64,000 bases of DNA from a virus: the IMG/VR virus record IMGVR_UViG_3300025018_000006, positions 1-64,000 of that record; one strand, written 5' to 3'. A program made the translations under genes and the position numbers. The notes below the pieces were generated by a model. The model ran no database searches. It was not told the DNA's origin and saw only the letters and a list, made by a program, of their open reading frames with translations. Positions 43,801 through 62,034 of this stretch are shown here, one piece after another; the first letter of the stretch is position 1; the number at the start of each line of letters is the position of its first letter.

Positions 43801-44430
43801 TTAAAGTTTCAAATCATCTGCAGTAGGCTCTATCTTATCCTCTGTTTCCGGTACCTTACTTGATGGATATGGATTAGGAGTATTAAGTCTCTTTAAATCC
43901 ATTCCAAGCCACATAATCCCTTCCTGCAATTTGGTAACCGATAAAGATTTTTCACGAGAAGGAAATCTGTCTGCACATTTCTTAACTTCTTGAAGCATAT
44001 TATCAATTCCTTTTCTTAATCCTTTTATCTGAACAATCTCAGATGGTTCGGTAATTTTCTTTTCGGGAGTAAACACATCTACAATGGCTTTGAAAAGAGC
44101 ATCTTTCTTTCTTTGAAATTCCGGTAAGTCATCATAAGGAACAAGGCATGGATGAGTCTTTACTTCAGGATCTTTTTCCTCACCAAGAATCCAACCGTCT
44201 TCAATTTTTTCAATCATCCAATTATCATGCATCTTCTTATCTGTAACAAACGGATTATTCAAACGAAAAGCAACTCCATTATATGCAGATTGCTGCTGCC
44301 ATTTTGGTGCATTATCCCAATCAAACTGTGAAAAATCTCCATTGTTTTCACAATATGCTTTATTTGCCTGATGACAAATTTTAGCTATTTCCAATATAGG
44401 CTCAGGACTAAATACCTCTCTTTTTTCCAT
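43801..44430 (-). CDS. RyR-domain protein fused to an Acb2/Tad1-like helical hairpin
   Basis: HDNWM.EK..DGW..G..KD...KTHPCLVPYDDLP..QR.KD (RyR) plus SREKSLSVTKLQEGIMWL. Confidence 0.7.
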   Translation of the reverse strand: MEKREVFSPEPILEIAKICHQANKAYCENNGDFSQFDWDNAPKWQQQSAYNGVAFRLNNPFVTDKKMHDNWMIEKIEDGWILGEEKDPEVKTHPCLVPYDDLPEFQRKKDALFKAIVDVFTPEKKITEPSEIVQIKGLRKGIDNMLQEVKKCADRFPSREKSLSVTKLQEGIMWLGMDLKRLNTPNPYPSSKVPETEDKIEPTADDLKL

Positions 44431-49322: not shown

Positions 49323-49787
49323 ATGAATGCTGAAATCTTAAACACTGAGATATTAAATGAAGTGGCATTGACATATCGTAATAAGTACGATATTACTAAA
49401 CGGCCAAGGATAACCACATCTCAATCAAGCTACGAGCTGTTACTGGCCAATTGGAATAAAGATACCATTTCATTGAAAGAAGAATTTAAAATACTTCTTT
49501 TAAACCGGTCAAATTTTGCCCTGGCAATATCTGTTATCAGCTCCGGAGGAACAATGGGAACAGTTGTGGATAAAAAACTAATCATTCTTACTGCATTAAA
49601 AATGAATGCGTCAGGAATAATAATGGCACACAATCATCCATCAGGTAATAATATACCAAGTGAAAGTGATAAGATTATTACAAAAGAAGTTGAAGCTGCA
49701 GCTAAAATAATAGGCATAGATATACTTGATCATATCATTGTCTGTCAGCATAAATATTTTTCATTTGCAGATAGTGGATTAATTTAA
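49323..49787 (+). CDS. radC: RadC-like JAB/MPN domain protein
   Basis: EEFKILLLNRSN, HNHPSG..PSESD and LDHII motifs. Confidence 0.92.
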   Translation: MNAEILNTEILNEVALTYRNKYDITKRPRITTSQSSYELLLANWNKDTISLKEEFKILLLNRSNFALAISVISSGGTMGTVVDKKLIILTALKMNASGIIMAHNHPSGNNIPSESDKIITKEVEAAAKIIGIDILDHIIVCQHKYFSFADSGLI

Positions 49788-50932: not shown

Positions 50933-51148
50933 TTACAATCGTAGAAAATCTTTATCTTTAGTATATTTCAAATACCGAGCTTCACTTTCTGTTAATCCGA
51001 TAAATTCACTTTCAGTAAATGATATTTCATCTGGATAATATTCAAAGAGAGTTTTTAAACTTCCATCTTCAAAAGTAACAATTACTCTTGGCATTGGATC
51101 TTCGAATCTTTCCGGCTGCTTAGTTATAATGCAGTTAGTTATTTTCAT
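50933..51148 (-). CDS. Small hypothetical protein
   Basis: 71 aa; LFEYYPDEISF..EFIGLT. Confidence 0.6.
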   Translation of the reverse strand: MKITNCIITKQPERFEDPMPRVIVTFEDGSLKTLFEYYPDEISFTESEFIGLTESEARYLKYTKDKDFLRL

Positions 51149-51157
51149 GGCTTTGTT

Positions 51158-51775
51158 TTAAATATTAATTAAATCCAATTGATTTCTATTATATAATGGA
51201 ACTTTATTACGAATATATGCTTTTAATTGTTGAAAATGAGCTTTAAGAGTTTCTTCAATTTTAGAATCTATAACTTGTTTAGCTTCTCTAATCATTTCAT
51301 CTTCACCATCATCACCATAAAATCCCCAGCAGCTATCAAGCTCAGTGCAATATCCATAAACTTGTCCAGAAAGATATAAATTCCATTGTTCAATCAATGC
51401 TTCCGCGACTATTGTTGCTTGTTCTTTTTTCCAAGTCCATTTAGCTTGTTTTTGAACAAGGACAAAACCTTTAAAAGACACATCAAACTTATCAGTAAAT
51501 GGATATTCAGTTTTACTTAAAGACAGGGATACTCCTCCGTGAATATAGGCGGAGACTGGAAATATCCAATATCCTTTATAAGTTTTGAATCCTTCTGAAA
51601 ATTTGTGAAATATATCCAATGGTTCAAATCCATCTACTTTTACATTGAAATCTCGATGATCATATACTAAGAAGCAATCATCATTACCCCAAGCATCTGG
51701 ACTTTCAGCATTGGTATCATACAATACCTGGATATCATATCCTTTGTAATTGATTGTCTCGATTAAATTATCCAT
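51158..51775 (-). CDS. Hypothetical protein of an MGE early-region family (antirestriction-like, tentative)
   Basis: YIHGGVSL, YLSGQVYGY and DSCWGFYG motifs; probable start MDNLIET. Confidence 0.55.
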   Translation of the reverse strand: MDNLIETINYKGYDIQVLYDTNAESPDAWGNDDCFLVYDHRDFNVKVDGFEPLDIFHKFSEGFKTYKGYWIFPVSAYIHGGVSLSLSKTEYPFTDKFDVSFKGFVLVQKQAKWTWKKEQATIVAEALIEQWNLYLSGQVYGYCTELDSCWGFYGDDGEDEMIREAKQVIDSKIEETLKAHFQQLKAYIRNKVPLYNRNQLDLINI

Positions 51776-52142
51776 TTTCTTTTTGTTTTTCAGGTTCCCA
51801 AATCTTAATAGCAGTAAATTCGTTAATAGATGCATTAAGCTCAGAAAAAGCTAAAGCATAAGGATTTCTCAGCTGACCATAAGGAGCTTCTTTATTGTAC
51901 TGATACACATGCTGATTAGGAGTTATGTCTTGACACTTTTCAACCATGCTATCGGTTATACCATAAGGAAATGCAGTATCGATGCTTCCATCAATTCCTG
52001 TATATTCACAAGCAGTTCTTTTATTGCCAAATAATACATTAGCGATAAATCCATGAAGCATGGTGGCTTGACTTGCATCAAGATTATCTATCCATGCTTT
52101 AATAATCTGCTTTGTTTCGATATTTAGTTCACTTTTTTTCAT
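51768..52142 (-). CDS. Hypothetical protein
   Basis: 124-aa ORF in a coupled minus-strand cluster. Confidence 0.55.
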   Translation of the reverse strand: MKKSELNIETKQIIKAWIDNLDASQATMLHGFIANVLFGNKRTACEYTGIDGSIDTAFPYGITDSMVEKCQDITPNQHVYQYNKEAPYGQLRNPYALAFSELNASINEFTAIKIWEPEKQKENG

Positions 52143-52596
52143 AAAAATTCTTTGTAAAGATTATATATTTTATCCAAGCAAAAGGCCTTCTTAATTTGTA
52201 ATACGCATTAATGTTAGCCTTATTATAAGCTTCTCTTTCAAAGCTAATGAGCCGGTAAGCATAATATCTCGGATATATAAACAAATTAATTATCCAGTTA
52301 ATAAAATACAAATAGTAAAATAACGGTAAGATAAACAATGTCCAAAGCCATAATCCGGACAATATAGCAACGGTAAGATAGATCAGTAATCCTACTGCAG
52401 CGCATTCCATTTGCTGCGCAATATGAATCATCTCATGGTTCCTTGTAATGATATTCATTTTTTTATACTTGTTCTGATATATCACAAAAGGAAACAGGGT
52501 AATAGCATACGCTGATCCAAATGTCAAAATGAGCATCAACAAAGGACTGATAATATGCCAACCTTTAAACGCGGGTAAAAATCTTGGTATTTTCAT
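52129..52596 (-). CDS. Membrane protein with HExxH zincin-like motif
   Basis: NHEMIHIAQQME...ISFEREAY plus TM helices. Confidence 0.65.
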   Translation of the reverse strand: MKIPRFLPAFKGWHIISPLLMLILTFGSAYAITLFPFVIYQNKYKKMNIITRNHEMIHIAQQMECAAVGLLIYLTVAILSGLWLWTLFILPLFYYLYFINWIINLFIYPRYYAYRLISFEREAYNKANINAYYKLRRPFAWIKYIIFTKNFYEKK

Positions 52597-52615
52597 TTTT
52601 TTTATTTTTAGATTA

Positions 52616-53140
52616 TTAGAAAGGACAAGTTAATTCACCTGTTTTAAATTTATGAGAATCCTTAATAACATCTTCCCAGAACTTATCTAGGTCTAAAGGA
52701 GGCTCAATTAACTCAATGTCAATAAGTGCATCTTTTAGACTCTGGATAATGGTTCCTCGGAAAGCATAACTATTTTCAATAGAGATTATGGAATCTTTAA
52801 GTGAGAAATTTATATTGTCCATTTTAAATAGATTAGGGAAATGTACTAAACGTTCGTTATAGTCCATTTTATTCAGTTCTTTAAGGAAATCCTTTACTCC
52901 AAACGGATACCTCACCTTAAGGTCTTCGTAAATATACAAATAATCCCTTACTTTTTCCTCAACTTCAGCAATCGTTAAATCATTATCAAATTCAATAGGA
53001 TATCCTAAAAATTGAGCAATAGTATTACACTGTTTCATAAATGCACTGCCATTAAACTCACTTTCTAATGTACCAAAATTCTCAATAAGCCATGATTTAA
53101 GCTCAAATTTAGCTCTGTGATGAAGGTTTAATAGATCCAT
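52616..53140 (-). CDS. Hypothetical protein
   Basis: 174-aa ORF. Confidence 0.55.
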   Translation of the reverse strand: MDLLNLHHRAKFELKSWLIENFGTLESEFNGSAFMKQCNTIAQFLGYPIEFDNDLTIAEVEEKVRDYLYIYEDLKVRYPFGVKDFLKELNKMDYNERLVHFPNLFKMDNINFSLKDSIISIENSYAFRGTIIQSLKDALIDIELIEPPLDLDKFWEDVIKDSHKFKTGELTCPF

Positions 53141-53328
53141 ATTGTAGATATTATTATAATTACAAGAAAGATGATAATTGCTATCAATATTATTTTAGGA
53201 CCTGCAAAATCTGTTCTTGGAGTAAAGCTTTCATAAATATCATGACCAGTCTTCGTTTCGTCTGTCTGCAGATTGTGGTATTCCCTTTGAATCTTCCTGA
53301 CTATTTGATTTATATCTATTTTCTCCAT
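53128..53328 (-). CDS. Small protein with a C-terminal membrane anchor
   Basis: 66 aa with C-terminal TM. Confidence 0.5.
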   Translation of the reverse strand: MEKIDINQIVRKIQREYHNLQTDETKTGHDIYESFTPRTDFAGPKIILIAIIIFLVIIIISTIWIY

Positions 53329-53638
53329 TTGGGTATTCTCTTAAATAAAGTTCGTATCCAATATAATGTAAATGATAGTTACAGGCTGTAACTAACCTCC
53401 TCATTTGTGAGGTGAGAGCTTTATGTTTACTTATTTCTCTGGCAAACAAGATTGTATTGACAAGCATGTTGTATGTATTAAGCAAATGCCAGTCATCAAA
53501 ATCTTTTATTGCAGTTAATCTTCCATCCTGACTTTCCCAAATATAGCTTTCAAAGCGATCTGGTTTAGTTTTGAATTTATCAGGGATTTTAGTTCTTGTT
53601 ACCTTAAAATCTACAAATGTATTGTTTGTTGCTTTCAT
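53240..53638 (-). CDS. Hypothetical protein
   Basis: WESQDGR...IKDFDDWHLLN motif common in phage proteins. Confidence 0.55.
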   Translation of the reverse strand: MKATNNTFVDFKVTRTKIPDKFKTKPDRFESYIWESQDGRLTAIKDFDDWHLLNTYNMLVNTILFAREISKHKALTSQMRRLVTACNYHLHYIGYELYLREYPNGENRYKSNSQEDSKGIPQSADRRNEDWS

Positions 53639-53835
53639 GGTTTTACTGTTTCTATTTCTTCTACTTTAAGTTTTCGTAAATTATTACCGAATAATTCATC
53701 AACAATGATTATCTCATCATCAAAATCAACTTCTCTGATATATACGGTAATCCCGGTTGATTTCTCTTTCAACCATAAAGAGTTTCCAGATAAAAGGTTT
53801 GATACCTTATCCTCAAATTTTACTATTTTATCCAT
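53635..53835 (-). CDS. Small hypothetical protein
   Basis: 66 aa, coupled overlaps with neighbours. Confidence 0.5.
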   Translation of the reverse strand: MDKIVKFEDKVSNLLSGNSLWLKEKSTGITVYIREVDFDDEIIIVDELFGNNLRKLKVEEIETVKP

Positions 53836-54386
53836 AAATCTTCAAGTTTCATTAATGTTTCACTTTTTGGTAATGGGCAATTCTTAATCCATTTCATGTT
53901 TGACTTTATCTGCCAAATGTTTTCGATAAATTCAGTTACATCAGGATCTAATGTAATGCCTTCAAATATATTAAGTCTTGGACTTATCCCAATTAATGGA
54001 TTAAACTTTTTAGTTTCTTTTAACTTTTTCATTATATCACAAAATTCATCTGCTGAACGTTGATCATGCAGTGTTAAAGTAATACCATCAACTCTGGCTA
54101 CAAGAAATAGAAAATCCTCTATACTCCAATCTGTTTTGGCAGTATAAACGATAATCTCTTTGCACCCAGCAATAAGGATAACCGATATTAATGTATGTAG
54201 CTCAGGTAAGAATAAACATGGCTCACCTCCAGTGATGATTACCTGCTTATAATTATCTATCTCATGCAGAAATTTCTCCCTGGCTAAGGTAGGTATATTA
54301 TCCTGAGTGAAACTACTTTGCTTGTTGCAACATCCTTTGCAACTTCTATTGCACTCATAGGTGCAGATAAGCCTTAATTTTTTCAT
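53823..54386 (-). CDS. Radical SAM protein
   Basis: CNRSCKGC (CxxxCxxC) and ITGGEP; probable start MKKLRLICT. Confidence 0.85.
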   Translation of the reverse strand: MKKLRLICTYECNRSCKGCCNKQSSFTQDNIPTLAREKFLHEIDNYKQVIITGGEPCLFLPELHTLISVILIAGCKEIIVYTAKTDWSIEDFLFLVARVDGITLTLHDQRSADEFCDIMKKLKETKKFNPLIGISPRLNIFEGITLDPDVTEFIENIWQIKSNMKWIKNCPLPKSETLMKLEDLWIK

Positions 54387-54497
54387 AATACTTGGTTTAA
54401 AATTGTTATAAAAGTTAGAAAAAAAGATAAATGCTATGTACCCGGCAAGTAACAAGTAATTATTTTTTTTTTAAATCTTTAATAATAATGCTTAAAT

Positions 54498-54788
54498 ATG
54501 GAACAGGTAAAAAATCAACCTAACCTTCAAATTAAGATGCAGAAATTTGATGGTGATTTAGTAAAATGGCCAGATGATGTTTTCTCAAAATGGGCTGAGG
54601 ATCTCACCGATTCAGAGAAGAAAGAATTAATGGCTCTGCATAGAAATGCTCGTGATTTTTATAAGCGTATTTTGTCTGAAGAGTATCGGAAGAAAGTTCC
54701 AAACAGTTGGAGGTATAAAGATGCCGAAGAAAAGATACGTAAGTATAATTTTCAGGGAAAACTCTTGAAAGAATTAATTGATAAATAA
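54498..54788 (+). CDS. Hypothetical protein
   Basis: 96 aa, first gene of the plus-strand operon. Confidence 0.55.
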   Translation: MEQVKNQPNLQIKMQKFDGDLVKWPDDVFSKWAEDLTDSEKKELMALHRNARDFYKRILSEEYRKKVPNSWRYKDAEEKIRKYNFQGKLLKELIDK

Positions 54789-55782
54789 CCCTTTAATACA
54801 TTTAAAAATGAATTTACATTCAATCAAACCTGGTAAAGAAATTAACAAATCCGATGCTCCTGTTATCTTTGAATTTGAAGGTAAAGGACAAGATGTTCAA
54901 CCAATAAGCCTTGACCTGCTTAAAAGTAGTATCCGTAGAGAATCTGGTCTTGCAGGTATTAGAAGTATCCCGGCTCAGTACTGGAATGCTTATAACACAA
55001 TCTCAAACATGGTCGAGGAAAGTAAATTGAATTTTCAACATAAAGAAATTTATGTTCAGAACAATTCATCAAAAGCATACCTTACTGATGATGAAAAAGA
55101 AGCAGGATTTACTCAAAAGAATGCTCCTATCAATCGTTGGAGATTTGATAAAATCATATCTACTATTCAGCTTCCAAATATAGTTGCTGATAAAAATATT
55201 TCCGATCTGGCTCGTAATGCTGCCATAGGAATATCTTTAAATAAAGAAGGTTTAAGCATTGCATTTGGAATGAATGTGTATGCCTGTACTAATTTCAATG
55301 TTATGGGTGGTACCATTATGCATTCCTATGGACAGGGAAGTAGAGATTCAATGCCCTGGGATCTGATGAAGCATAGACTTCAATCATGGATTTCTCAAAT
55401 TGATCAAATATGGTCTGTGCAGAATGATATCATGAAAGAAATGATGAATTATCAGTTGCCAGCCATAGGAAATGAAGCCATTGATGAAATTATTGGTGGT
55501 CTGTATATTGGTGCTTTAAAGAACGCTTATTTCAAAGGAGATCCTGTTCCATTTAATACTCATGAGCTAAGTGATTTTGTTCAGGAGTCTATTCGTCAGC
55601 AAAGAGTACAGGAAACTGTTGCTAATGTCTGGGATTTATACAACTGGGGAACCAGTATCATGAAGCCCGGCCGTATGGATATTGGTGAAATTTCTACCAA
55701 TTCAAATATGTGGTCAGACTATCTGATTGATCATTTCAATATTGACGCTCCAAAAGAAATATTTGCGGAGGAGGTTGAATAA
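54778..55782 (+). CDS. DUF932-like protein
   Basis: IAFGMNVYACTN and NVWDLYNWGT motifs. Confidence 0.6.
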   Translation: MINNPLIHLKMNLHSIKPGKEINKSDAPVIFEFEGKGQDVQPISLDLLKSSIRRESGLAGIRSIPAQYWNAYNTISNMVEESKLNFQHKEIYVQNNSSKAYLTDDEKEAGFTQKNAPINRWRFDKIISTIQLPNIVADKNISDLARNAAIGISLNKEGLSIAFGMNVYACTNFNVMGGTIMHSYGQGSRDSMPWDLMKHRLQSWISQIDQIWSVQNDIMKEMMNYQLPAIGNEAIDEIIGGLYIGALKNAYFKGDPVPFNTHELSDFVQESIRQQRVQETVANVWDLYNWGTSIMKPGRMDIGEISTNSNMWSDYLIDHFNIDAPKEIFAEEVE

Positions 55783-56066
55783 TGGCTACAAAAAAATGGA
55801 CTTATCATATTACACATAGTTATGAAGATGTTGAGTCGGGGCTTAAAGTAAGCTCCCTTACTCAACTATATCAGACAGGTGTGTATATGATCGTTAATAA
55901 TGATGCGGCTGCACAGTTTAACTTTAAGCCAAGTCAGATGGTTAATCTGGAAAGAAAGCTTATAAAAGCTCAAGATAGTGAATTTATAAAAAATCTTATC
56001 TTTGGAAGAAAAATAACAGTCATTGAAAATGAAGATGGCCTTTATGAAGATGAAGATAAGAATTAA
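55782..56066 (+). CDS. Hypothetical protein
   Basis: 94 aa; start overlaps the previous stop. Confidence 0.55.
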   Translation: MATKKWTYHITHSYEDVESGLKVSSLTQLYQTGVYMIVNNDAAAQFNFKPSQMVNLERKLIKAQDSEFIKNLIFGRKITVIENEDGLYEDEDKN

Positions 56067-56107
56067 GAAATTATTTTCTTTTTAAATTTTAATAAAAAAA
56101 AAGTAAA

Positions 56108-56683
56108 ATGGGATTTTTTAGAAAATTAAATGATCTAATTGACGGTTATACCGTTCAATTAATTATCCGAAAGGATAATGATAAAATGATCGTTATGCTT
56201 ACTCCTAAATTGGATGTGAGTAAAGACGATGTACAAAAACAAATTGTTCCTTTGACAATCTCGGGAACCCCGGATCAGCTTGATCAAGGATTTATCCTTG
56301 CCGTATCAGATGGATTAAGACAAGCTTCTGGACTCCAGAGTAACATTAAGGAATATGAGGCTTCTATTAAAAAAGCTAACACTAAAGCTGCTGATAAAGG
56401 TAAGGTAAAGGATATTGTTCCACCTGAAAAGAAAGCTGATACAAGTCAAGCAAGTATGTTTGATGATAATGAATCAAAACCGGATACTGAACCAAAAGCA
56501 GAATTGGAAGAGAAAGCTGAAAAGCCTAAAACAAGTTCTATAAAGCCAGGTAAGACAAAGAAGGAAGATCCTCAACCGGGGCTTGAACCTGAGGATACTG
56601 AGGAAGAAAAACAGTTAGGTAATGATTTAAACCAAGATCCACCTTTCGAGGCGGATGACGATTTTGGAGATGACGAATGGTAG
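56108..56683 (+). CDS. PRTRC system protein E
   Basis: MxFF..L...PLTISGTPDQLDQGF motif followed by a low-complexity charged tail. Confidence 0.85.
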   Translation: MGFFRKLNDLIDGYTVQLIIRKDNDKMIVMLTPKLDVSKDDVQKQIVPLTISGTPDQLDQGFILAVSDGLRQASGLQSNIKEYEASIKKANTKAADKGKVKDIVPPEKKADTSQASMFDDNESKPDTEPKAELEEKAEKPKTSSIKPGKTKKEDPQPGLEPEDTEEEKQLGNDLNQDPPFEADDDFGDDEW

Positions 56684-56895
56684 CATTAAAAGTAGAAACC
56701 TTAAATAGGGAATTTGTTGACGGTAAGACCGGCATGATATTTCCCGATGTGAATCCTGCTTATACAACTGAGCAGGTTAGAGACTTCTTATCTAATCAAT
56801 ATCCTCACCTGGTAAATGCCAGGATAGAGGGTCCTGATATTCTTAAGACTAAAGTGAAATACACTTTTGTAACAAATGTAGGAACTAAGGGATGA
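56677..56895 (+). CDS. PRTRC system protein C (prokaryotic ubiquitin-like protein)
   Basis: REF...PD.NP..T.EQVRDF.S..YP.L.NA.IEGP...YTF...VGTKG with a free C-terminal Gly. Confidence 0.9.
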   Translation: MVALKVETLNREFVDGKTGMIFPDVNPAYTTEQVRDFLSNQYPHLVNARIEGPDILKTKVKYTFVTNVGTKG

Positions 56896-57071
56896 CAATG
56901 ACATTGAAGGATTATTGCGACGGGTTGAGGTTATTAAAATCTCAGCCCGTTTCTTTTGAATTGCATTGTGAGTTAGGTCATATCCTCGATGCTGATAATG
57001 AACCTATCTCCGAGATGGAACACACTGATAAAATCCTCTTAGAACCTGAAGAAATTCCTTTTATATTATGA
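56892..57071 (+). CDS. Small acidic protein (59 aa) inside the PRTRC operon
   Basis: MTMTLKDYCDGLRLL...EEIPFIL*; ATGA overlaps at both ends. Confidence 0.6.
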   Translation: MTMTLKDYCDGLRLLKSQPVSFELHCELGHILDADNEPISEMEHTDKILLEPEEIPFIL

Positions 57072-58171
57072 AAATAACACTTCCAACACAAAGTTTCTGG
57101 ACTGTTGCCCAGAAGGCTGATGTTGATCCTTTATTCCCGGGCAAAAACTCTATGATACAAGCCGTAAAAGATATATCCGAGATAATAGATCCTTCACTTA
57201 ACGCTAAGCTGACAGAGCTATTCCTAAAGAAAGGAAGCTTTGCTAAGAAGTTTTCATTATTTCTTACAGCTATTCGTGAATCACTGCAAACACCAATTCA
57301 GGGATTTGAAATTGCTTATGATGGTAGTTATTACATAAAAGCTTACTGCTATCATAATTTGAAGGATCAGCATTTGTATTTATTTCCTCTAAGCTGGCTT
57401 CCGCAGATGAGAAAAGTTAATAAAAAGCTTTTCGAGATTATGATAGCATCTATCGCTTTACTTTATCGTAGAGATGTTACTTGCTTTGAAGAGCAGATGT
57501 GGGATGATTATTTGAGAGAAACTATTCAAGATGATATTGAATATAATAAAGAAACTTATACCAAAGATGAAGTGAGTAAAATAATAAGAGAACTTGCTTT
57601 ATGGGATGAGTATGGAAGTAAATATCAGGATATGTTTTACCAAAGAAAATTCTCGGTAGAAAAGCTTGAGAAAATGATCTCAAACTATAAACCAGGCCTT
57701 TCTGCAGAACTTATTATACTGAACTTTGCTAAAATGCTTCTAAAAGCAATCAAGCAACCTCAGGATATGAGTTACTTTGAAGGAGAATCATTAAATCAGT
57801 TTGCAAGATATAATGAACTTGAAATGGATGAGGATGATGAACCTCAGTTTCTTGATGGATACCCTCTAACTATAAAATCTAAAATACAATTCTGTTGGTT
57901 TGCCGAAGGTAATGTAAGAGAGCAAATCGTTTCTTATGCATCTGAAACTGCAGATAATTTTGGAGAAGCAGAATATTCAAAGGAATATGAGTGTAGAACT
58001 CGTGATGAACTTAAAGAGGCATACACTAATTTTGTTGATGAGATAGGAAACTTCCCGGAGTATCTTGCAGAAGCTATCGAGTATGCAAATGAGCATGAAG
58101 AAGTATTTTATGATTATGTAAATCAATGTTTAACACAAACTTTATTTCCAATCCATGAATTTAGAACGTAA
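57068..58171 (+). CDS. PRTRC system protein F-like
   Basis: 367-aa helical acidic protein in the usual position between C and B; call rests mainly on synteny. Confidence 0.55.
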   Translation: MKITLPTQSFWTVAQKADVDPLFPGKNSMIQAVKDISEIIDPSLNAKLTELFLKKGSFAKKFSLFLTAIRESLQTPIQGFEIAYDGSYYIKAYCYHNLKDQHLYLFPLSWLPQMRKVNKKLFEIMIASIALLYRRDVTCFEEQMWDDYLRETIQDDIEYNKETYTKDEVSKIIRELALWDEYGSKYQDMFYQRKFSVEKLEKMISNYKPGLSAELIILNFAKMLLKAIKQPQDMSYFEGESLNQFARYNELEMDEDDEPQFLDGYPLTIKSKIQFCWFAEGNVREQIVSYASETADNFGEAEYSKEYECRTRDELKEAYTNFVDEIGNFPEYLAEAIEYANEHEEVFYDYVNQCLTQTLFPIHEFRT

Positions 58172-58874
58172 CGATTTCGTACCGTGCAAAATAATTAAAG
58201 TCTATCAACAGCAAAACAAAGACAATTATTATTTGGAACTGCACAATGTTATTAGAGATAAAAACACCAACAAATTAATGGTTGGAAGTGGAAGACCTCT
58301 GCAGAGAAAAACTATGGGCCGGCTATTAAGTGCAGTGCATAGTAATGAGGTAAATTCTTATTTCAAAAAACCATTAATAGATATCAGGCTTTTATCTTGT
58401 GAACCACTAAAGTATAAAAGGCATATATTATGGTATGATAAGCCAATGCTTCATCCAATGATATTTTCAGATAGATTTGGACTTGAAGATGGTAAATATC
58501 ATTTCCCTGCAATGCTTTACTTTGTTAGTATGGATACAATAAGATTCTTTGCAATGAAAACCGGAAATAAAAGACCGGTATTAAGCACAAAGCTGTATCA
58601 TGCACCAATGTTTAATACGATAAATGATAATACTATTTGCTGGGGATCAGTAAAGAAAGACACTTCAGGTATTACTGAAATAGATTCTGAAATGGATGCC
58701 TGGGATACATTCATATGGCAAAGTAAATTCTCTCATGGCGGTAACGGTGTAACTACAAAGGAAGATTTAGTTAAGATTTTCAAGAAAACTAAAGATGGAA
58801 ACAGAAAATTTCCTTTAACAAGCCTTATTGATACAAAGATGGTTTTAGGTGATTTATTTGATAAATATTTATGA
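58155..58874 (+). CDS. PRTRC system protein B (prokaryotic E2-like)
   Basis: FP.MLY, LYHAPMFN...ICWGS (candidate catalytic Cys) and W.SKFSH motifs. Confidence 0.85.
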   Translation: MNLERNDFVPCKIIKVYQQQNKDNYYLELHNVIRDKNTNKLMVGSGRPLQRKTMGRLLSAVHSNEVNSYFKKPLIDIRLLSCEPLKYKRHILWYDKPMLHPMIFSDRFGLEDGKYHFPAMLYFVSMDTIRFFAMKTGNKRPVLSTKLYHAPMFNTINDNTICWGSVKKDTSGITEIDSEMDAWDTFIWQSKFSHGGNGVTTKEDLVKIFKKTKDGNRKFPLTSLIDTKMVLGDLFDKYL

Positions 58875-59668
58875 CAACACATTTTATTGCTCAAAGATTA
58901 GCCAGCACTCAGCATAAGATTACTTTTAATCTTATAGGGTGCGGAGGAACCGGTAGTCATATTTTAAGTAATTTGGCTATGATGAGTCATTCAATGGTTA
59001 AGCTGGGAAGACAGCCATTCTTTGTAAGGGTATGGGATTCTGATACTGTATCTGAGCATAACATTGGTAGGCAGCTATTCTCTCCTGCTGATGAAGGAAG
59101 ATTCAAAGCAGAAGTATTGATAGAAAGGATTAATCGATTCTATGGACTTCAATGGTACAGCATGAATGCTGATTTCCAATTAACAGGATTTCGTGATGAT
59201 GACCTAAACTCAAATATCACTATATCTGCAGTTGATTCTGTTCATTCAAGAAGAATGATTCAGGATGTTGTTCAAAGAAAGGTTAATCCTTATCAACCAT
59301 ATAGAGTACCTTATTATTGGTTTGACGTAGGCAATAGCTATAACTCTGGACAGATATTAATGGCAACATTAAGGGATATACCTCAACCTTCCGCCGGCAC
59401 AAGGAAATCACTTCCTGACTTTTTTGATGAATTTGGAGATGTTCAAGAAACACCTAATGAACCGAGCTGCTCTACTGCAGAATCATTAGCCAGGCAAGAT
59501 TTGTTTGTGAATAAACTAATGGCAACCTATACAACTCATATGATATGGGATTTTCTTAAAAACTTCCGTATTGCATATCGAGGATTATATGTTAATTTAG
59601 AATCTTATAAAGTTTCACAAATACCAATATATTATGTCAAAAAAGATAGTAAAGCAAACGCAAAGTAA
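58871..59668 (+). CDS. PRTRC system ThiF-family (E1-like) adenylyltransferase
   Basis: IGCGGTGS, DSDTVSEHNIGRQLF, AVDS, DVGN...GQ and PSCSTAESLARQDLFVN motifs. Confidence 0.92.
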   Translation: MTTHFIAQRLASTQHKITFNLIGCGGTGSHILSNLAMMSHSMVKLGRQPFFVRVWDSDTVSEHNIGRQLFSPADEGRFKAEVLIERINRFYGLQWYSMNADFQLTGFRDDDLNSNITISAVDSVHSRRMIQDVVQRKVNPYQPYRVPYYWFDVGNSYNSGQILMATLRDIPQPSAGTRKSLPDFFDEFGDVQETPNEPSCSTAESLARQDLFVNKLMATYTTHMIWDFLKNFRIAYRGLYVNLESYKVSQIPIYYVKKDSKANAK

Positions 59669-59813
59669 AGACTATAAATTAGTCAAAGTAGATGATCGTA
59701 CATGGATTGAAGTAACTGTGGATACTAATGAAGATGTCGCAAGGCATATGTATCTTCAAAGGATAGAAGACTCAAGGAAAAAAGTTATTCAACAAAATCG
59801 CAAAAACGATTAA
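59634..59813 (+). CDS. Small hypothetical protein (59 aa)
   Basis: MSKKIVKQ...KLVKVDDRTWIEV; overlaps the end of the ThiF gene. Confidence 0.5.
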   Translation: MSKKIVKQTQSKDYKLVKVDDRTWIEVTVDTNEDVARHMYLQRIEDSRKKVIQQNRKND

Positions 59814-59869
59814 TGGATATATTTACAAGCAATTATTTTCTTTTTCGAATTTAAAAAATTTATAAAATC

Positions 59870-60244
59870 ATGAGAAAAAACAAAATTAGTTTAACAGATA
59901 GGATACGAATCCTTCGTAATGTAAATAGTTCTTTAAAGCGTAAAGGGCCTATTCTCATTATGTCTCAGGCTAAAACTGACACCGTATTAATGATGGCAGG
60001 AAAGCCTGCAGACCTTATCCCTCTTTGCGGAGAGGCGATGAGTAAAGATTCGGATATAAAGAAAATTATGAAAGAATCTTTAGAACTTACTGATCAGTTT
60101 GAAAGATTTAAAGCTTCGTTAAAAGGTGACTTAATAAAAAGTCTTTTAGATTTTCTTACAACTGAAGATAAGAAAGAGAAAGGTGATTCACAAACTAAGA
60201 AAACTGCTAAAGAATCTGAAAAAGATTTAACTAAAGAAAATTAA
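59870..60244 (+). CDS. Hypothetical protein
   Basis: 124-aa ORF. Confidence 0.55.
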   Translation: MRKNKISLTDRIRILRNVNSSLKRKGPILIMSQAKTDTVLMMAGKPADLIPLCGEAMSKDSDIKKIMKESLELTDQFERFKASLKGDLIKSLLDFLTTEDKKEKGDSQTKKTAKESEKDLTKEN

Positions 60245-60260
60245 AAATCCCTGCTTGGGT

Positions 60261-60369
60261 AGGGTGATACCGCTGCTGCACGAAATTATATAACGAAAGT
60301 GCCGAGAGGTTGTTTGCCGACAATCTAAGTCCGTTCGCGAAATAAGTCAAGACGTATCACCCTTTTTTA
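60261..60369 (+). ncRNA. Candidate structured RNA / cis-element
   Basis: AGGGTGATAC (60261-60270) pairs with GTATCACCCT (60354-60363) followed by a T tract; internal stems GCAC/GTGC and AGGTTGT/ACAATCT. Confidence 0.45.
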
Positions 60370-60425
60370 TTGGATGTAATTACATCAGTATATACTTTAT
60401 TTTAATTTAAAAATTGTAATCGATT

Positions 60426-61124
60426 ATGGAAGAATTGAATGTAACCGTAAAAGACGGTGTTTCGAATTTGGATGTTCGTACCGGTGCCGCCGCTCCCATT
60501 AGGGAAACGCAAGATTTAATAATATCAGGATCATTGAAGGCTCCAGGTGATTTTCTGCAGATAAGAAGACAACAGTTTCCACCATCAGCTTCTCATGTTA
60601 CTGTTAACGAAGATGCTGGAAGAATTACTCTGTTTGGTCTTGATCAAAGTGAAATAGGAAGTATTAAAGTTCATGGAAACCTTACTGTTCATCATGATTT
60701 TGAAAGACTTGGAGTAAATAATACCAGTATTGTTCGCCAGCCTGTTGATTTAGCTAAATGGATTAAGATGAACCGTAGCATATTCGAGTCTAAGGATGTT
60801 GCTAATAACTTAATCAGTGAATTAAGAAACTTCAAAGCTAAGATCAACAAAGAACTGGAACAAACCAGTGATGATCGTGCTAATTATACTCAAAGACAAC
60901 AACAAGCTGTTGAGAGTAATTTGCCCGATACATTTAAGATAAAAGTACCTTTATTTGTTGGTGAGGCTCCTCATACTTTTGTTTGTGAGGTAATTATTGA
61001 CCCTGATGATTTTAGTTGTGCATTAATTTCTCCCGATGCTGCTGATCTGGTAAGACGCGAAAAAGCCGCAATGATAGCCGAGCAAGTTGCTCGTTTTGAC
61101 GGTTACGCGATCATATATCAGTAA
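60426..61124 (+). CDS. DUF2303/YfdQ-like protein
   Basis: LPDTFKIKVPLFVGE C-terminal motif and overall layout. Confidence 0.5.
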   Translation: MEELNVTVKDGVSNLDVRTGAAAPIRETQDLIISGSLKAPGDFLQIRRQQFPPSASHVTVNEDAGRITLFGLDQSEIGSIKVHGNLTVHHDFERLGVNNTSIVRQPVDLAKWIKMNRSIFESKDVANNLISELRNFKAKINKELEQTSDDRANYTQRQQQAVESNLPDTFKIKVPLFVGEAPHTFVCEVIIDPDDFSCALISPDAADLVRREKAAMIAEQVARFDGYAIIYQ

Positions 61125-61574
61125 ATGAAGCAGCAAATGTTTAAAGACAAGTCTCCTGAAGATAGAATTGTAATTCTTCGGGATACTTGTGATAAAGCTG
61201 AGGTTTTTAAGTATGAAAAAGCCTACACCAATCAAGATGTAGAAATGTTCCGGGAGAGATTGTCGGAGATTATGATTGAAATTGGCAAAATAGAATCGGA
61301 ATTAGCCAAAGTAAAGAAAATCTATAGCGACAAAATGAAGCCGCTAAAGAAGGAAATCAATGAACTTTTAAGTAATATTGAGTTCAGATCTCAGGCAGTT
61401 GAAGAACAAGTTTACATTTTTATTGATCATGAAGCTAATCAAGTTGGGTACTATAATTCCGAGGGCTTACTGGTACATACCAGGATGCTTAAGATTGATG
61501 AACATCAACGTTCTATAATAGGAGCGTCGCGTGTTCATGATGAGGAATTTATATATGCCGAAGTCGAGTCATAA
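61125..61574 (+). CDS. Coiled-coil hypothetical protein, partner of the preceding gene
   Basis: 149 aa, abuts the previous gene; VGYYNSEG.L..TR motif. Confidence 0.55.
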   Translation: MKQQMFKDKSPEDRIVILRDTCDKAEVFKYEKAYTNQDVEMFRERLSEIMIEIGKIESELAKVKKIYSDKMKPLKKEINELLSNIEFRSQAVEEQVYIFIDHEANQVGYYNSEGLLVHTRMLKIDEHQRSIIGASRVHDEEFIYAEVES

Positions 61575-61581
61575 CGACAAT

Positions 61582-61611
61582 AGGAGAGTTTAAAAGCTCT
61601 CCTTTTTTTTT
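61582..61611 (+). terminator. Rho-independent terminator
   Basis: AGGAGAG...CTCTCCT followed by poly-T. Confidence 0.8.
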
Positions 61612-61632
61612 GAATCATTATATTTGTATGTT

Positions 61633-62034
61633 ATGACTAAAGAAAATTTGGGCATTGCCCTAACAAAAGAAGCCTGTCCTTTATGCGGAGCATTACAGGA
61701 TGGCTCAATCGTTATCAATACACAATTAACGAAAAGTGAAGCTGAAAAAGTTGAACAACTTCACGGAAAAACTGTTGGTTACTCTAAAGCTCCTTGCGAG
61801 GAATGCCAGAATATTATGAATCAGGCAATTCTTCTAATTGGAGTTGTAGAAGCGAAAACAGATGATACTAAAAACCCTTATCGCTCCGGAAACAAATGGG
61901 GCGTTACAGAAGATTTTATTAAAAAAGCCTTTGATCCAGAAATGGCTGAACAAGTCTTGGAAAAAAGAGCATCATCCATCTCAGTTGAGGCAGCTTCGCA
62001 GATGGGATTTCCCGACTGCAATCTGGATGCTTAG
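61633..62034 (+). CDS. Zn-finger (CxxC...CxxC) hypothetical protein
   Basis: CPLC and CEEC; TATATTTG promoter motif at 61619-61626. Confidence 0.6.
   Translation: MTKENLGIALTKEACPLCGALQDGSIVINTQLTKSEAEKVEQLHGKTVGYSKAPCEECQNIMNQAILLIGVVEAKTDDTKNPYRSGNKWGVTEDFIKKAFDPEMAEQVLEKRASSISVEAASQMGFPDCNLDA

What the first reader, a model, noticed from the sequence alone, without database searches (positions are those of the whole stretch)
56108..59668. Ubiquitin-like conjugation (PRTRC) operon carried by a crAss-like phage
Seen: six overlapping, translationally coupled genes: E, a 72-aa Ubl ending in a free -VGTKG, a 59-aa ORF, an F-like gene, an E2-like gene with ICWG, and an E1/ThiF with an intact nucleotide-binding loop and SCS. 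Known: PRTRC cassettes are of unknown function and, to my knowledge, are mainly described on plasmids/ICEs, usually with ParB and JAB genes. Bacterial E1-E2 systems (CBASS Cap2, Bil) act in phage conflict. Inference: this phage encodes its own protein-tagging pathway, without a ParB gene in the operon, and expresses it early. It could modify host defence or replication proteins, or those of competing elements. The Ubl already exposes its Gly, so it needs no maturation protease.
Basis: partly seen in the sequence, partly recalled or inferred. Interest (0 to 1): 0.92.

Follow-up and report, generated by a model that had tools for sequence, protein, structure and literature searches.

The report
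Phage-borne ubiquitin-like tagging cassette (PRTRC variant)
An uncultured groundwater phage carries a complete, intact set of genes for attaching a small ubiquitin-like protein to other proteins; the same cassette turns out to be common in phages, sits among their DNA-replication genes, and its target is still unknown.

Summary
Window 56108-59668 encodes six overlapping genes. Four pass curated models: PRTRC E, PRTRC C (a Prok_Ub ubiquitin-like protein ending in Gly), a Prok-E2_D E2, and the PRTRC ThiF E1. The genome is a complete 80.5-kb phage with terminal repeats, and independent assemblies bridge the cassette borders, so it is not a chimera.

Three corrections:
- **"F-like" is positional only.** The 367-aa protein belongs to a separate family (F') with no detectable link to PRTRC F and no known fold.
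- **Phage carriage is not unique.** 321 IMG/VR stretches encode this ThiF, RefSeq annotates PRTRC in Ralstonia phage Dina, and two 2026 papers mention prophage copies.
- **"crAss-like" is weak.** It rests on 23-25% TerL identity. The phage recurs in aquifer and spring metagenomes.

New points:
- Cassettes split into type 1 (JAB present, Ubl with a 62-67-aa tail) and type 2 (no JAB, Ubl ending at Gly). The window is type 2.
- The 59-aa ORF is conserved in 7 related contigs and overlaps a covarying terminator-like hairpin just after the Ubl gene.
- Type-2 cassettes lie in phage replication modules. A beta-clamp gene directly precedes E in 13 of 73 loci, and the window's E carries a clamp-binding-like QASMF.

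Function is inferred, not shown.

The parts
54498..54788 (+). U96: 96-aa gene that travels with the cassette in the window's phage lineage. Function unknown.
   Evidence: Own HMM hits in L008, L088, L091 and L093 at the same position. No family hit.
54778..55782 (+). U334: 334-aa conserved gene directly upstream of the cassette. It is DUF932/DUF3871-like by language-model features only.
   Evidence: 54-62% identical homologs at the same position in L008, L088, L090 and L091, and also in L015. Atlas score 0.96 to DUF932/DUF3871 clusters. Pfam finds DUF932 in 0 of 5 homologs at E<=1.
55782..56066 (+). 94-aa ORF specific to the window. Relatives have U334 directly followed by E.
   Evidence: ORF. 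In L008, L088, L090 and L091, E starts within a few bases of the end of U334. No family hit.
56108..56683 (+). PRTRC protein E: a conserved N-terminal domain of about 100 aa, a Lys-rich low-complexity linker, and an acidic tail ending DDDFGDDEW.
   Evidence: PF19556 1.4e-21; TIGR03741 54.5 bits, above its cut-off. Alignment A9. C-termini and Lys content.
56447..56461 (+). QASMF (E residues 114-118): a beta-clamp-binding-like short linear motif in the disordered linker.
   Evidence: It fits the published consensus Q-aliphatic-x-[L/M]-[F/L] and differs by one residue from Pol III alpha QADMF (passage).
56677..56895 (+). PRTRC protein C: a 72-aa ubiquitin-like protein (Prok_Ub) whose last residue is Gly72 (..VGTKG, then stop).
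   Evidence: PF14454 3e-16; TIGR03738 71.6 bits, above its cut-off. Gly72 is invariant in 41 of 41 type-2 C proteins (A6).
56919..56961 (+). Terminator-like RNA hairpin (14-bp stem, 5-nt loop) followed by a T-tract. It starts 24 nt after the Ubl stop, inside the S reading frame.
   Evidence: Scan. MFE -28.2 kcal/mol, z -5.0. A hairpin sits at the same place in L090, L091, L088 and L008. RNAalifold on 6 sequences predicts 14 pairs, 4 with changes on both sides, then an invariant GTTTCTTT.
56892..57071 (+). S: a 59-aa ORF, ATGA-coupled to C and to F'. It is conserved only in the window's phage lineage.
   Evidence: 57-67-aa ORFs at the same position in L008, L088, L089, L090, L091 and L092, 26-59% identical, with P19 V20 S21 F22 I31 I55 invariant (A5). 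No homology to type-1 C tails or to type-2 F' leaders. PVSF is encoded by the 3' stem arm plus the T-tract.
57068..58171 (+). F': a 367-aa mostly helical protein in the slot where canonical cassettes have PRTRC F. It belongs to a distinct family of unknown fold.
   Evidence: 40 relatives among 1.84 billion representatives. hhalign against the F-slot protein of a Parabacteroides plasmid cassette: 93%, E 3.4e-7. An independent type-2 F' HMM scores E 2.2e-18. No link to PRTRC F. AF2 pLDDT 89. No fold match.
58155..58874 (+). PRTRC B-like E2 (Prok-E2_D). The candidate catalytic Cys162 (nt 58638-58640) lies in the motif AP..N...C.G.
   Evidence: PF14460 2.7e-24. P151, N154, C162 and G164 are invariant in 82 of 82 distinct homologs. 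AF2 pLDDT 87.9. The top 15 rows of the wide fold search are all E2/UEV chains, but only at Z 3.7-4.4.
58871..59668 (+). PRTRC ThiF-family E1. It has the nucleotide loop G23xGGxG28 and a candidate catalytic Cys200 (nt 59468-59470) in P-S-C-S.
   Evidence: TIGR03736 200.2 bits, above its cut-off. G23, G25, G26, G28, D56, N64, R67, Q68, K79, D122, R127, S199 and C200 are invariant in 83 of 83 distinct homologs. The profile hits the adenylation domains of UBA6, UBA3, UBA1, MccB, ThiF, SAE2 and Cap2.
59634..59813 (+). D59: a 59-aa gene that overlaps the end of ThiF by 35 nt and is conserved downstream of ThiF in the lineage.
   Evidence: Own HMM hits in L008, L090 and L093 at the same position.

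Best explanation
This is an intact 'type-2' PRTRC cassette, a JAB-less and ParB-less variant of the operon that Iyer et al. 2006 listed as class 6d. A lineage of environmental phages, distantly crAss-like, carries it inside the replication gene block.

Inferred mechanism, by homology:
1. The ThiF E1 binds ATP and adenylates Gly72 of the 72-aa Ubl. The Ubl is translated already mature, so no protease is needed.
2. The Ubl passes as a thioester, possibly through E1 Cys200, to E2 Cys162.
3. It is then attached to a lysine of a target protein.

F', S and E are accessory proteins that probably set specificity.

Second layer of inference: the system acts at the replisome. E has a folded N-domain, a Lys-rich disordered linker with a clamp-binding-like QASMF, and an acidic tail. 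I propose that E docks on the host sliding clamp or its partners, and that E either recruits the E2~Ubl or is itself the acceptor.

The conserved terminator-like hairpin right after the Ubl gene would make E and Ubl transcripts more abundant than those of the enzymes.

Shown here: gene identities, intact catalytic motifs, the link between JAB and the Ubl tail, vertical inheritance, the replication-module context, and hairpin covariation. Inferred: every biochemical step, the target, and the timing of expression.
For: **Identity.** Curated model hits for E, C, E2 and ThiF.

**Intact chemistry.**
- The E1 nucleotide-site residues and Cys200 are invariant in 83 of 83 distinct ThiF homologs.
- E2 P151, N154, C162 and G164 are invariant in 82 of 82.
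- Ubl Gly72 is invariant in 41 of 41.

**No maturation needed.** 68 of 69 JAB-less C proteins end in Gly. All 11 JAB-bearing loci have a 62-67-aa tail module after G[TR]KG.

**A real phage gene set, not a chimera.**
- The record has direct terminal repeats and is 100% complete by CheckV.
- A 9,198-bp contig in run X3 covers 51000-59914 with 3 differences, and X7 bridges 59345-60210.
- S is seen on 12 contigs.

**Vertical inheritance.**
- The same block occurs in L008 (TerL 70% identical) and in 6 metagenome loci.
- The lineage's ThiFs form one clade, SH-aLRT 99.

**Replication context.**
- Flanks of 15 sampled type-2 carriers hold DnaB, beta-clamp, ERF/Rad52, helicases, methylases and SPP1 portals, and no conjugation genes.
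- In the window, helicase, primase-helicase, a DnaA-like HTH and UDG follow on the same strand.
- DnaN ends 3-109 nt upstream of E in 13 of 73 type-2 loci, spread over about 9 ThiF groups. In L079 it occupies the F' slot.

**E motif.**
- Q..[LMI]F occurs in 26 of 79 distinct E proteins, against a shuffle mean of 4.3 (max 11).
- The motif is specific to E and is found in 12 of 28 E clusters.
- The window's QASMF fits the published clamp-binding consensus.

**Hairpin.** z -5.0, conserved in 5 lineage members, 4 of 14 pairs with compensatory changes.
Against: - No biochemical evidence exists for any PRTRC system. A 2026 paper states that the function has not been studied.
- With the published clamp-motif consensus, only 10 of 79 E proteins match, against a shuffle mean of 4.3 (max 12). 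That is not significant.
- I chose the looser pattern after seeing the data, and related sequences inflate the counts.
- Within the window's own lineage the motif is only partly kept: QASMF, KNDLF, KAGLF, and none found in L008 or L088.
- The window phage has no DnaN next to the cassette. 56 of 73 type-2 loci have none in the fetched stretch.
- The E2 fold match to UBC enzymes is weak: Z 4.4 at best, and Foldseek finds none.
- TIGR03737 scores below its cut-off.
- F' has no recognisable fold or catalytic signature.
- ThiF-family enzymes can also serve sulfur transfer rather than conjugation.
Confidence: 0.55

Rival explanations
1. Counter-defence. The phage tags host immune proteins, or interferes with host ubiquitin-like defences such as Bil or CBASS Cap2, to neutralise them early in infection.
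For: - Bacterial E1-E2 systems act in phage conflict. Passages cited in a 2026 virome preprint interpret a gut-phage UBA5-like family in that light.
- The genome also carries a candidate nucleotide-sponge gene: an Acb2/Tad1 hairpin domain at 43801-44430, 28.7 bits against a cut-off of 27.
- The ThiF domain weakly matches CBASS E1-E2 models in PADLOC, best 4.3e-6.
Against: - The same cassette type sits on plasmids and conjugative elements: 367 plasmid records, typically next to ParB in the canonical form. That argues for a function common to replicating mobile DNA rather than a phage-specific anti-immune role.
- No defence or anti-defence gene is consistently linked to it. The consistent neighbours are replication genes.
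Confidence: 0.15
2. A defence or exclusion module carried by the phage. It tags proteins of competing phages or plasmids, as Bil tags phage tail proteins, and so protects the infected or lysogenic cell.
For: - Many IMG/VR carriers are classed as proviruses.
- Iyer et al. 2006 speculated on an addiction-like or protective role for these mobile operons (passage).
- A 2026 preprint reports PRTRC protein B of a Phocaeicola prophage as a recurrent mutation hotspot beside a diversity-generating retroelement (passage). That pattern would suit a protein that recognises a target.
Against: - No cassette protein except the generic E1 domain matches any PADLOC model.
- The window phage shows no integrase among the ORFs scanned with Pfam, which were 48 ORFs and not the whole genome. 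Its architecture looks lytic.
- The cassette sits inside the replication operon, not in a typical accessory 'moron' position.
Confidence: 0.12
3. Not protein tagging. The Ubl is a sulfur or acyl carrier of the ThiS/MoaD type, activated by the ThiF enzyme for a nucleic-acid or cofactor modification pathway.
For: - ThiF, MoeB and MccB are among the profile's PDB matches.
- PAPS-reductase-family genes lie near the cassette in L027 and L028, and DNA-modification genes (DAM-like plus GNAT, amidoligase) near it in L043, L060, L074 and L085.
- A radical-SAM gene lies at 53823-54455 on the other strand.
Against: - An E2-family protein with an invariant Cys is always present, 82 of 82.
- No rhodanese or cysteine desulfurase was seen in the cassette or among the ORFs scanned.
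- Type-1 systems pair the Ubl with a JAB peptidase and a cleavable tail, which is the logic of protein-modifier systems.
Confidence: 0.08
4. Assembly artefact: the cassette was joined to a phage contig from a plasmid or conjugative element.
For: None was found. The nearest ThiF relatives by tblastn in the plasmid collection are from Bacteroidota plasmids, 33-39% identical.
Against: - Independent assemblies bridge both borders.
- GC content is uniform across the region, 0.33-0.36.
- The same flanking genes accompany the cassette in 7 related contigs.
- The record has terminal repeats.
Confidence: 0.01

Closest known systems
Canonical PRTRC cassette (TIGR03734-03742). Examples: the Rhodoferax ferrireducens T118 plasmid and Ralstonia phage Dina.
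   Same: - Same gene order: E, C, F-slot, B, ThiF.
- E, C and ThiF pass the same curated models.
- E1 and E2 catalytic residues are shared by both types.
   Different: - The window has no ParB, no protein A (JAB) and no PRTRC F. Positive controls for A and F found both in 2 of 2 type-1 records.
- Its Ubl ends at Gly. The canonical C carries a 62-67-aa tail ending VLP or VLA.
- The F slot holds an unrelated-looking family: hhalign 0.1-1%.
- ThiF sequences of the two types separate with SH-aLRT 100.
Bacteroidota-type cassettes on plasmids: Parabacteroides distasonis NZ_OY725769 and Tunicatimonas pelagia NZ_CP120684.
   Same: - Five-gene layout: E, a short C (73 or 67 aa), an F'-slot 'hypothetical' (375 or 338 aa), an E2 family D protein, and ThiF. 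No JAB.
- The F' family is homologous: hhalign 93%.
- These are the best ThiF matches in the plasmid collection, 33-39% identical.
   Different: - The window lineage has the extra S gene and the hairpin between C and F'. The plasmids have 35- and 43-nt gaps there.
- Most type-2 F' proteins carry a basic leader of about 48 aa ending in an 'FL' motif. The window's F' lacks it and starts just after that point.
Operon class 6d of Iyer, Burroughs and Aravind 2006 (PMC1779556, passages read).
   Same: Their description covers a Ubl with a C-terminal Gly, an E1-like protein, an E2-like protein that lacks the classical His but has a conserved Cys, and a 'rapidly diverging alpha-helical protein'. Bacteroides is listed among the hosts.
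   Different: Their description includes a JAB protein as a constant member. The window and 61 of the 79 fetched IMG/VR loci have none.
Bil, Bub and CBASS Cap2 bacterial ubiquitination-like defence systems.
   Same: The chemistry is E1 plus E2 plus (for Bil and Bub) a Ubl. Cap2 and a BubCD chain appear among weak sequence or fold matches.
   Different: - No PADLOC model matches any cassette protein apart from the E1 domain, at 13-24 bits.
- The E2 family is different (Prok-E2_D).
- The window has no deubiquitinase.
- It is carried by phages inside replication operons.
Eukaryotic PCNA ubiquitylation and SUMOylation. This is an analogy only, recalled from general knowledge.
   Same: A Ubl-conjugation system genomically tied to a sliding clamp, together with a clamp-binding-like motif on an accessory protein.
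   Different: There is no homology beyond the E1/E2/Ubl folds, and no evidence here that the clamp is modified.

Membership tests
PRTRC cassette (NCBIfam/TIGRFAM definition) | ThiF-family E1 matching TIGR03736 | tested here: met
   200.2 bits against a cut-off of 144.75. The six-frame search gave 199.9 bits.
PRTRC cassette (NCBIfam/TIGRFAM definition) | Protein C (TIGR03738 / Prok_Ub) | tested here: met
   71.6 bits against a cut-off of 45.95. PF14454 3e-16.
PRTRC cassette (NCBIfam/TIGRFAM definition) | Protein E (TIGR03741 / PF19556) | tested here: met
   54.5 bits against a cut-off of 37.95. PF19556 77.5 bits.
PRTRC cassette (NCBIfam/TIGRFAM definition) | Protein B (TIGR03737) | tested here: inconclusive
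   96.9 bits, below the cut-off of 131.45, over nearly the full model. Pfam Prok-E2_D passes at 86.2 bits against 25. The plasmid type-2 B proteins are also below the cut-off.
PRTRC cassette (NCBIfam/TIGRFAM definition) | Protein F (TIGR03742) | tested here: not met
   - No hit at E<=0.1.
- 0 of 33 family members hit.
- The six-frame genome search gave 0 hits, and the positive control found F in 2 of 2 type-1 records.
- hhalign 0.1% and 1%.
PRTRC cassette (NCBIfam/TIGRFAM definition) | Protein A (JAB, TIGR03735) | tested here: not met
   The six-frame genome search gave 0 hits, and the positive control found A in 2 of 2 records. The only JAB-fold gene in the genome is a RadC-like one at 49323-49787.
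PRTRC cassette (NCBIfam/TIGRFAM definition) | ParB homolog (TIGR03734) | tested here: not met
   The six-frame genome search gave 0 hits at E<=0.01, while the control rang in 8 of 14 genomes. No ParB Pfam hit in the 48 ORFs scanned.
Iyer 2006 operon class 6d | [quoted passage not shown] | tested here: met
   Gly72, Cys162 and Cys200 are invariant. The His after the F-S of the 'FSH' motif is present in 4 of 5 aligned E2s, including the window.
Iyer 2006 operon class 6d | Adjacent JAB peptidase | tested here: not met
UBC-fold E2 enzymes | UBC-like core fold around the catalytic Cys | tested here: inconclusive
   - AF2 model pLDDT 87.9.
- Foldseek found no match at E<=0.001.
- In the VIA wide search, ranks 1-15 are all E2/UEV chains aligned to residues ~67-227, but only at Z 3.7-4.4, rmsd 2.9-5.3, 70-131 residues aligned.
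Crassvirales / crAss-like phages | Hallmark structural genes related to those of crAss-like phages | tested here: inconclusive
   - TerL: 40 records hit, all below 60% identity. The best are crAss-like phages at 23-25%.
- Portal and TerL hit PHROGs families.
- The major capsid protein has no tblastn match in 50,697 phage records.
- The giant 4,611+ aa ORF has no PHROG hit.
Known anti-phage defence systems (PADLOC 2.0) | Component proteins match the system's models | tested here: not met
   Only the ThiF domain gives weak hits to CBASS E1-E2 models, at most 23.7 bits. The other 12 proteins tested give none or noise.
Beta-clamp-binding proteins | A clamp-binding motif Q-aliphatic-x-[L/M]-[F/L] in an accessible region | tested here: met
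   The window's E has QASMF at residues 114-118 in its low-complexity linker. The consensus comes from a passage read. Across the family, however, this pattern is not enriched: 10 of 79 against a shuffle mean of 4.3.
Beta-clamp-binding proteins | Physical binding to the clamp's hydrophobic pocket | not testable with these tools

The most novel reading that the evidence does not exclude
Phages and other mobile elements use the PRTRC E1-E2-Ubl cassette to tag the bacterial sliding clamp or a clamp-bound replisome protein. Protein E serves as the clamp-docking adaptor. This would be a prokaryotic counterpart of PCNA ubiquitylation, used to take over or retune host DNA replication. The JAB-less type 2, with a ready-made Ubl and a transcriptional attenuator after the Ubl gene, would be a streamlined one-way version suited to lytic infection.
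Probability: 0.15. Interest if true: 0.9.

Novelty: new variant of a known kind. Interest (0 to 1): 0.62.

Why it matters
Ubiquitin-like conjugation in bacteria has so far been tied to anti-phage defence (CBASS Cap2, Bil, Bub). PRTRC has been recognised since 2006, is annotated in hundreds of plasmids, and appears here in 321 viral-contig stretches. Yet it has no known function, and a 2026 paper says so explicitly.

This work does three things:
1. It shows that phages themselves commonly carry a complete E1-E2-Ubl set.
2. It splits the family into a JAB-plus-tailed-Ubl form and a JAB-less ready-made-Ubl form.
3. It gives a testable direction (the replisome and sliding clamp) and named residues to mutate: Gly72, E2 Cys162, E1 Cys200, and the QASMF motif of E.

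If the target is a replication protein, this would be a new way for mobile DNA to control host replication. It would also be a striking parallel to PCNA modification in eukaryotes.

Tried and rejected
**S as a detached C tail or F' leader.**
- BLASTP found nothing.
- hhalign with 2 and then 7 S sequences gave probabilities of 0.3% or less against type-1 tails, type-2 leaders, F' and F.
- What remains is a shared position and a similar junction motif. S ends IPFIL or IPFLP, the window's F' starts where the 'FL' motif ends in other F' proteins, and type-1 tails end VLP or VLA. I kept this as a positional remark, not a claim.

**Complex prediction.** F' + Ubl + S, with S as the partner, scored 0.01 against a mark of 0.32. 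The tool returned no verdict, so this is not evidence either way.

**Fold of F'.** Foldseek against the PDB gave 0 hits at E<=0.001. The VIA wide search gave a best Z of 4.4. The Atlas gave no usable hit.

**F' homologs.**
- The word-index search found only a near-identical copy.
I repeated it with 6 close sequences.
- The search for related loci with the single ThiF protein found no relative.

**U334 as DUF932.** This is an Atlas lead only. Pfam matched 0 of 5 homologs.

**E N-domain against PDB sequences.** Nothing below E 0.09.

**E2 profile against PDB sequences.** 0 hits at E<=1.

**Window DNA against GenBank phages.** blastn of 54001-62000 found no match.

**RNA evidence.** No RNA holder is listed among the sequencing runs, so nothing can be said about expression.

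**Hairpin after C in other type-2 cassettes.**
- My crude scan found 15 of 63 stretches with z<=-2.
- Its T-tract test was faulty: it missed the window's own tract.
- No conclusion follows from this scan.

**RadC-like JAB as a trans-acting protease.** It lies near the cassette in only 7 other loci, so I dropped the idea.

**TerL survey.** Only 40 of the 79 carrier records were searched.

**ThiF tree.** The tree is the quick version, because the careful search did not finish.

Full report
**1. Observation**

All junctions inside the block are overlaps of 4-17 nt. Curated models identify four of them:
- PRTRC E: PF19556 1.4e-21; TIGR03741 above its cut-off.
- PRTRC C: Prok_Ub 3e-16; TIGR03738 above its cut-off. 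It is 72 aa and ends ..VGTKG followed by a stop.
- Prok-E2_D: 2.7e-24. TIGR03737 scores 96.9 bits, below its 131.45 cut-off.
- PRTRC ThiF: TIGR03736 200 bits against a cut-off of 144.75.

The 367-aa "F-like" protein and the 59-aa ORF hit nothing in NCBIfam, Pfam, PHROGs or PADLOC.

**2. The carrier**

The window is bases 1-64000 of an 80,514-bp virus record with direct terminal repeats, rated 100% complete. It encodes terminase, portal, a major head protein, tail proteins and an open 4,611+ aa ORF on the minus strand. The plus strand carries a block with the cassette, followed by helicase, primase-helicase, a DnaA-like HTH protein and a UDG-family protein.

The crAss-like label is weak:
- The best TerL matches are crAss-like phages, but at only 23-25% identity.
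- The capsid protein has no tblastn match in 50,697 GenBank phage records.
- The giant ORF has no PHROG hit.
- Earlier notes of this scan also call the genome crAss-like.

The 5.9-kb stretch around the cassette is held by 22 DNA runs labelled aquifer, hot-spring or cold-spring metagenomes. Ten of them hold at least half of the sampled words, and two are flagged as possible sources. So this is an environmental phage, not a gut phage.

**3. Not a chimera**

- In run X3, one 9,198-bp contig at depth ~345 covers 51000-59914 with three differences.
- X5 tiles the cassette without differences.
- X7 bridges 59345-60210.
- GC content is even across the region.
- The 59-aa protein is recorded on 12 contigs, the longest 80,531 bp.
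- The same flanking genes accompany the cassette in related contigs (section 5).

**4. Two cassette types**

Ralstonia phage Dina is annotated in RefSeq with PRTRC E-C-F-B-A-ThiF. A conjugative Rhodoferax plasmid has ParB-hyp-E-C-F-B-A-ThiF. Two Bacteroidota plasmids instead have E, a short C, a "hypothetical", an E2-D and ThiF, with no A.

A ThiF alignment recovered 321 confirmed stretches in IMG/VR. The best 80 gave 79 loci. I classified these with HMMs that I built iteratively from the annotated examples:
- 61 of 79 have the JAB-less layout with the F' family.
- 10 of 79 have the canonical layout with F and A.
- 8 are incomplete or lack a detectable F-slot protein.

The Ubl C-terminus follows this split. 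Of 69 C proteins in JAB-less loci, 68 end in Gly (mostly ..G.KG). The exception is L026, ending ..GTKA. All 11 JAB-bearing loci have a 62-67-aa module after G[TR]KG that ends ..VLP or ..VLA. In 9 of them it is fused to the Ubl, and in L069 and L075 it is a separate 74- or 66-aa ORF.

This supports the idea that protein A removes the tail in type 1, and that type 2 needs no protease. ThiF sequences of the two types separate with SH-aLRT 100 in a quick IQ-TREE of 83 rows. The careful search did not finish.

In the window's genome, six-frame searches find no PRTRC A, ParB or F. The same searches find A and F in 2 of 2 type-1 records.

**5. The window's lineage**

One IMG/VR contig (L008, TerL 70% identical) and six metagenome loci (L088-L093) carry the same block, as far as each contig reaches: U96, U334, E, C, S, F', B, ThiF, D59. 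Their ThiFs form one clade with SH-aLRT 99.

This fits a single acquisition followed by descent. TerL is 70% identical between the window and L008, ThiF is 49%, and F' is only 23%.

**6. The F-slot protein**

- An exhaustive phmmer search found 40 relatives, 30 of them below 1e-10.
- None of 33 full-length members hits PRTRC F.
- The family profile matches the F-slot protein of the Parabacteroides plasmid: hhalign 93%, E 3.4e-7 over 191 columns.
- It does not match Dina's F (0.1%). A comparison of 58 F' sequences with 11 F sequences gives 1%.
- The AlphaFold model is confident (pLDDT 89, pTM 0.86). It has no Foldseek match in the PDB, and the wide search gives a best Z of 4.4.
- Iyer et al. 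2006 described this component of their class 6d as a "rapidly diverging alpha-helical protein" that might be an enzyme (passage).

I call it F' and regard homology with F as open.

**7. The 59-aa ORF and the hairpin**

S is open at the same place in 7 of 7 lineage sequences. It is 57-67 aa, 26-59% identical, with P19, V20, S21, F22, I31 and I55 invariant.

A terminator-like hairpin lies at 56919-56951, followed by a T-tract, 24 nt after the Ubl stop and inside S:
- It folds far better than shuffles, with z -5.0.
- It recurs at the same place in L090, L091, L088 and L008, with z from -3.0 to -4.5.
- RNAalifold on six sequences predicts 14 pairs. Four of them have changes on both sides that keep the pair.
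- An invariant GTTTCTTT follows the stem. L089 and L090 are nearly the same in this stretch.

The invariant PVSF of S is encoded by the 3' arm and the T-tract. Part of the apparent protein conservation may therefore be an RNA constraint. The open frame, the ATGA coupling at both ends, and conservation outside the hairpin still argue that S is translated.

I read the hairpin as an attenuator that gives more E and Ubl message than enzyme message. This is an inference.

Tests of S against type-1 tails and type-2 F' leaders were negative. Only position and a junction motif link them.

**8. Catalytic residues**

- Across 83 distinct ThiF homologs, these are invariant: G23, G25, G26, G28, D56, N64, R67, Q68, K79, D122, R127, S199 and C200.
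- Across 82 distinct E2 homologs, these are invariant: P151, N154, C162 and G164.
- The ThiF profile matches the adenylation domains of UBA6, UBA3, UBA1, MccB, ThiF, SAE2 and Cap2 in the PDB.
- The E2 model has pLDDT 87.9 and no Foldseek match. In the wide search, ranks 1-15 are all E2 or UEV chains aligned to residues ~67-227, at Z of only 3.7-4.4. That is suggestive but inconclusive.

**9. Context and a lead on function**

I scanned 144 flanking ORFs from 15 type-2 carriers with Pfam. They hold DnaB, beta-clamp, ERF, Rad52, SNF2/ResIII helicases, DNA methylases, ParB_N proteins in three loci, SPP1-type portals in two, and ArdC in one. No conjugation genes appeared. The carriers look like phages, and the cassette sits in their replication and recombination module.

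With an HMM built from five Pfam-confirmed clamps:
- DnaN occurs in 17 of 73 type-2 loci.
- In 13 of them it ends 3-109 nt upstream of E on the same strand. These fall in about nine ThiF groups.
- In L079 it sits between C and B, where F' would be.

E proteins share a folded N-domain, a Lys-rich linker and a variable tail. Type-1 tails end ..TLDLF..TLNLF or ..GLDLPI. Many type-2 E proteins contain Q-x-x-[L/M/I]-F.

The motif counts are as follows:
- My looser pattern occurs in 26 of 79 distinct E proteins, against a shuffle mean of 4.3 (max 11 in 500 shuffles).
- It is at or below chance in F', B, ThiF and C.
- It is present in 12 of 28 E clusters.
- I chose that pattern after seeing the data.
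- With the published consensus (passage), only 10 of 79 match, against a shuffle mean of 4.3 (max 12). That is not significant.
- The window's own QASMF fits the published consensus and differs by one residue from Pol III alpha QADMF.
- The window phage has no DnaN beside the cassette.

I therefore hold the replisome or clamp reading as the best lead, not as a result.

**10. What is known**

- The term PRTRC occurs in 45 papers of the library. I saw the listing of 30.
- Passages I read report it in a Burkholderia prophage and state that the function has not been studied.
- Another passage reports protein B of a Phocaeicola prophage as a mutation hotspot.
- No paper holds both "crAss-like" and "ThiF".
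- Four papers hold "crAss-like" and "ubiquitin-like". I read passages of two. Neither describes such a cassette in a crAss-like phage, and I did not open the other two.
- PADLOC has no model for the cassette proteins.
- Supplements were not consulted.

**11. Verdict**

The cassette is real, intact and phage-borne. It is a JAB-less, ParB-less variant of a long-known but functionally uncharacterised family, and that variant is common in phages. What is specific to this lineage is the S gene with its embedded hairpin.

It still marks a widespread phage-encoded ubiquitin-like system of unknown target, and there are now concrete hypotheses to test.

Noticed in passing
window 43801-44430 (-): A 209-aa protein with a RyR domain (4e-12) and an Acb2/Tad1 hairpin domain (28.7 bits, cut-off 27). 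It is a candidate sponge for immune signalling nucleotides. PADLOC found no hit.
   Followed up: no
window 49323-49787 (+): A RadC-like JAB-domain protein (PF04002, 3e-34). It is the only JAB-fold gene in the genome. Similar genes lie within the fetched stretch of 7 other cassette-bearing loci.
   Followed up: partly
window 59915-61976: In run X3, a contig joins 59914 to 61977 at depth ~160, and depth over 60223-61425 falls from ~345 to ~12. Most of that population therefore lacks a 2-kb segment with three genes just downstream of the cassette.
   Followed up: no
window ~57015-57076: In all four runs laid, a contig matches the window up to 57076 and then continues with letters that look like the reverse complement of a tRNA T-arm. 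The local depth rises there too. This is probably a short match to another element.
   Followed up: no
L079:6335-7429: A beta-clamp gene sits between the Ubl gene and the E2 gene, in the slot normally held by F'. No F' is detected in that locus.
   Followed up: partly
L007 (NZ_OY725769) and L057: The 41-kb Parabacteroides 'plasmid 24' has a ThiF nearly identical to that of an IMG/VR viral contig; their tree branches are 0.023 and 0.011. The record may be a circular phage genome or a phage-plasmid.
   Followed up: no
L061: One IMG/VR locus carries two copies of an E-C-B-ThiF cassette about 10 kb apart. My HMM detects no F or F' in either copy.
   Followed up: no
L043, L060, L074, L085: Phage DAM-like plus GNAT-like fusion proteins lie a few kb downstream of the cassette. 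In L060 and L074 they come with an amidoligase domain and an ATP-grasp neighbour. These look like DNA hypermodification genes.
   Followed up: no
window 3-13835 (-): An ORF of at least 4,611 aa, open at the window edge, has no PHROG hit at 1e-5.
   Followed up: no
L006:12616-14410: On the Tunicatimonas plasmid, umuD and a Y-family polymerase lie ~4.8 kb downstream of the type-2 cassette. A DUF6527 gene, a family I recall from Bub-type operons, lies at the edge of the stretch.
   Followed up: no
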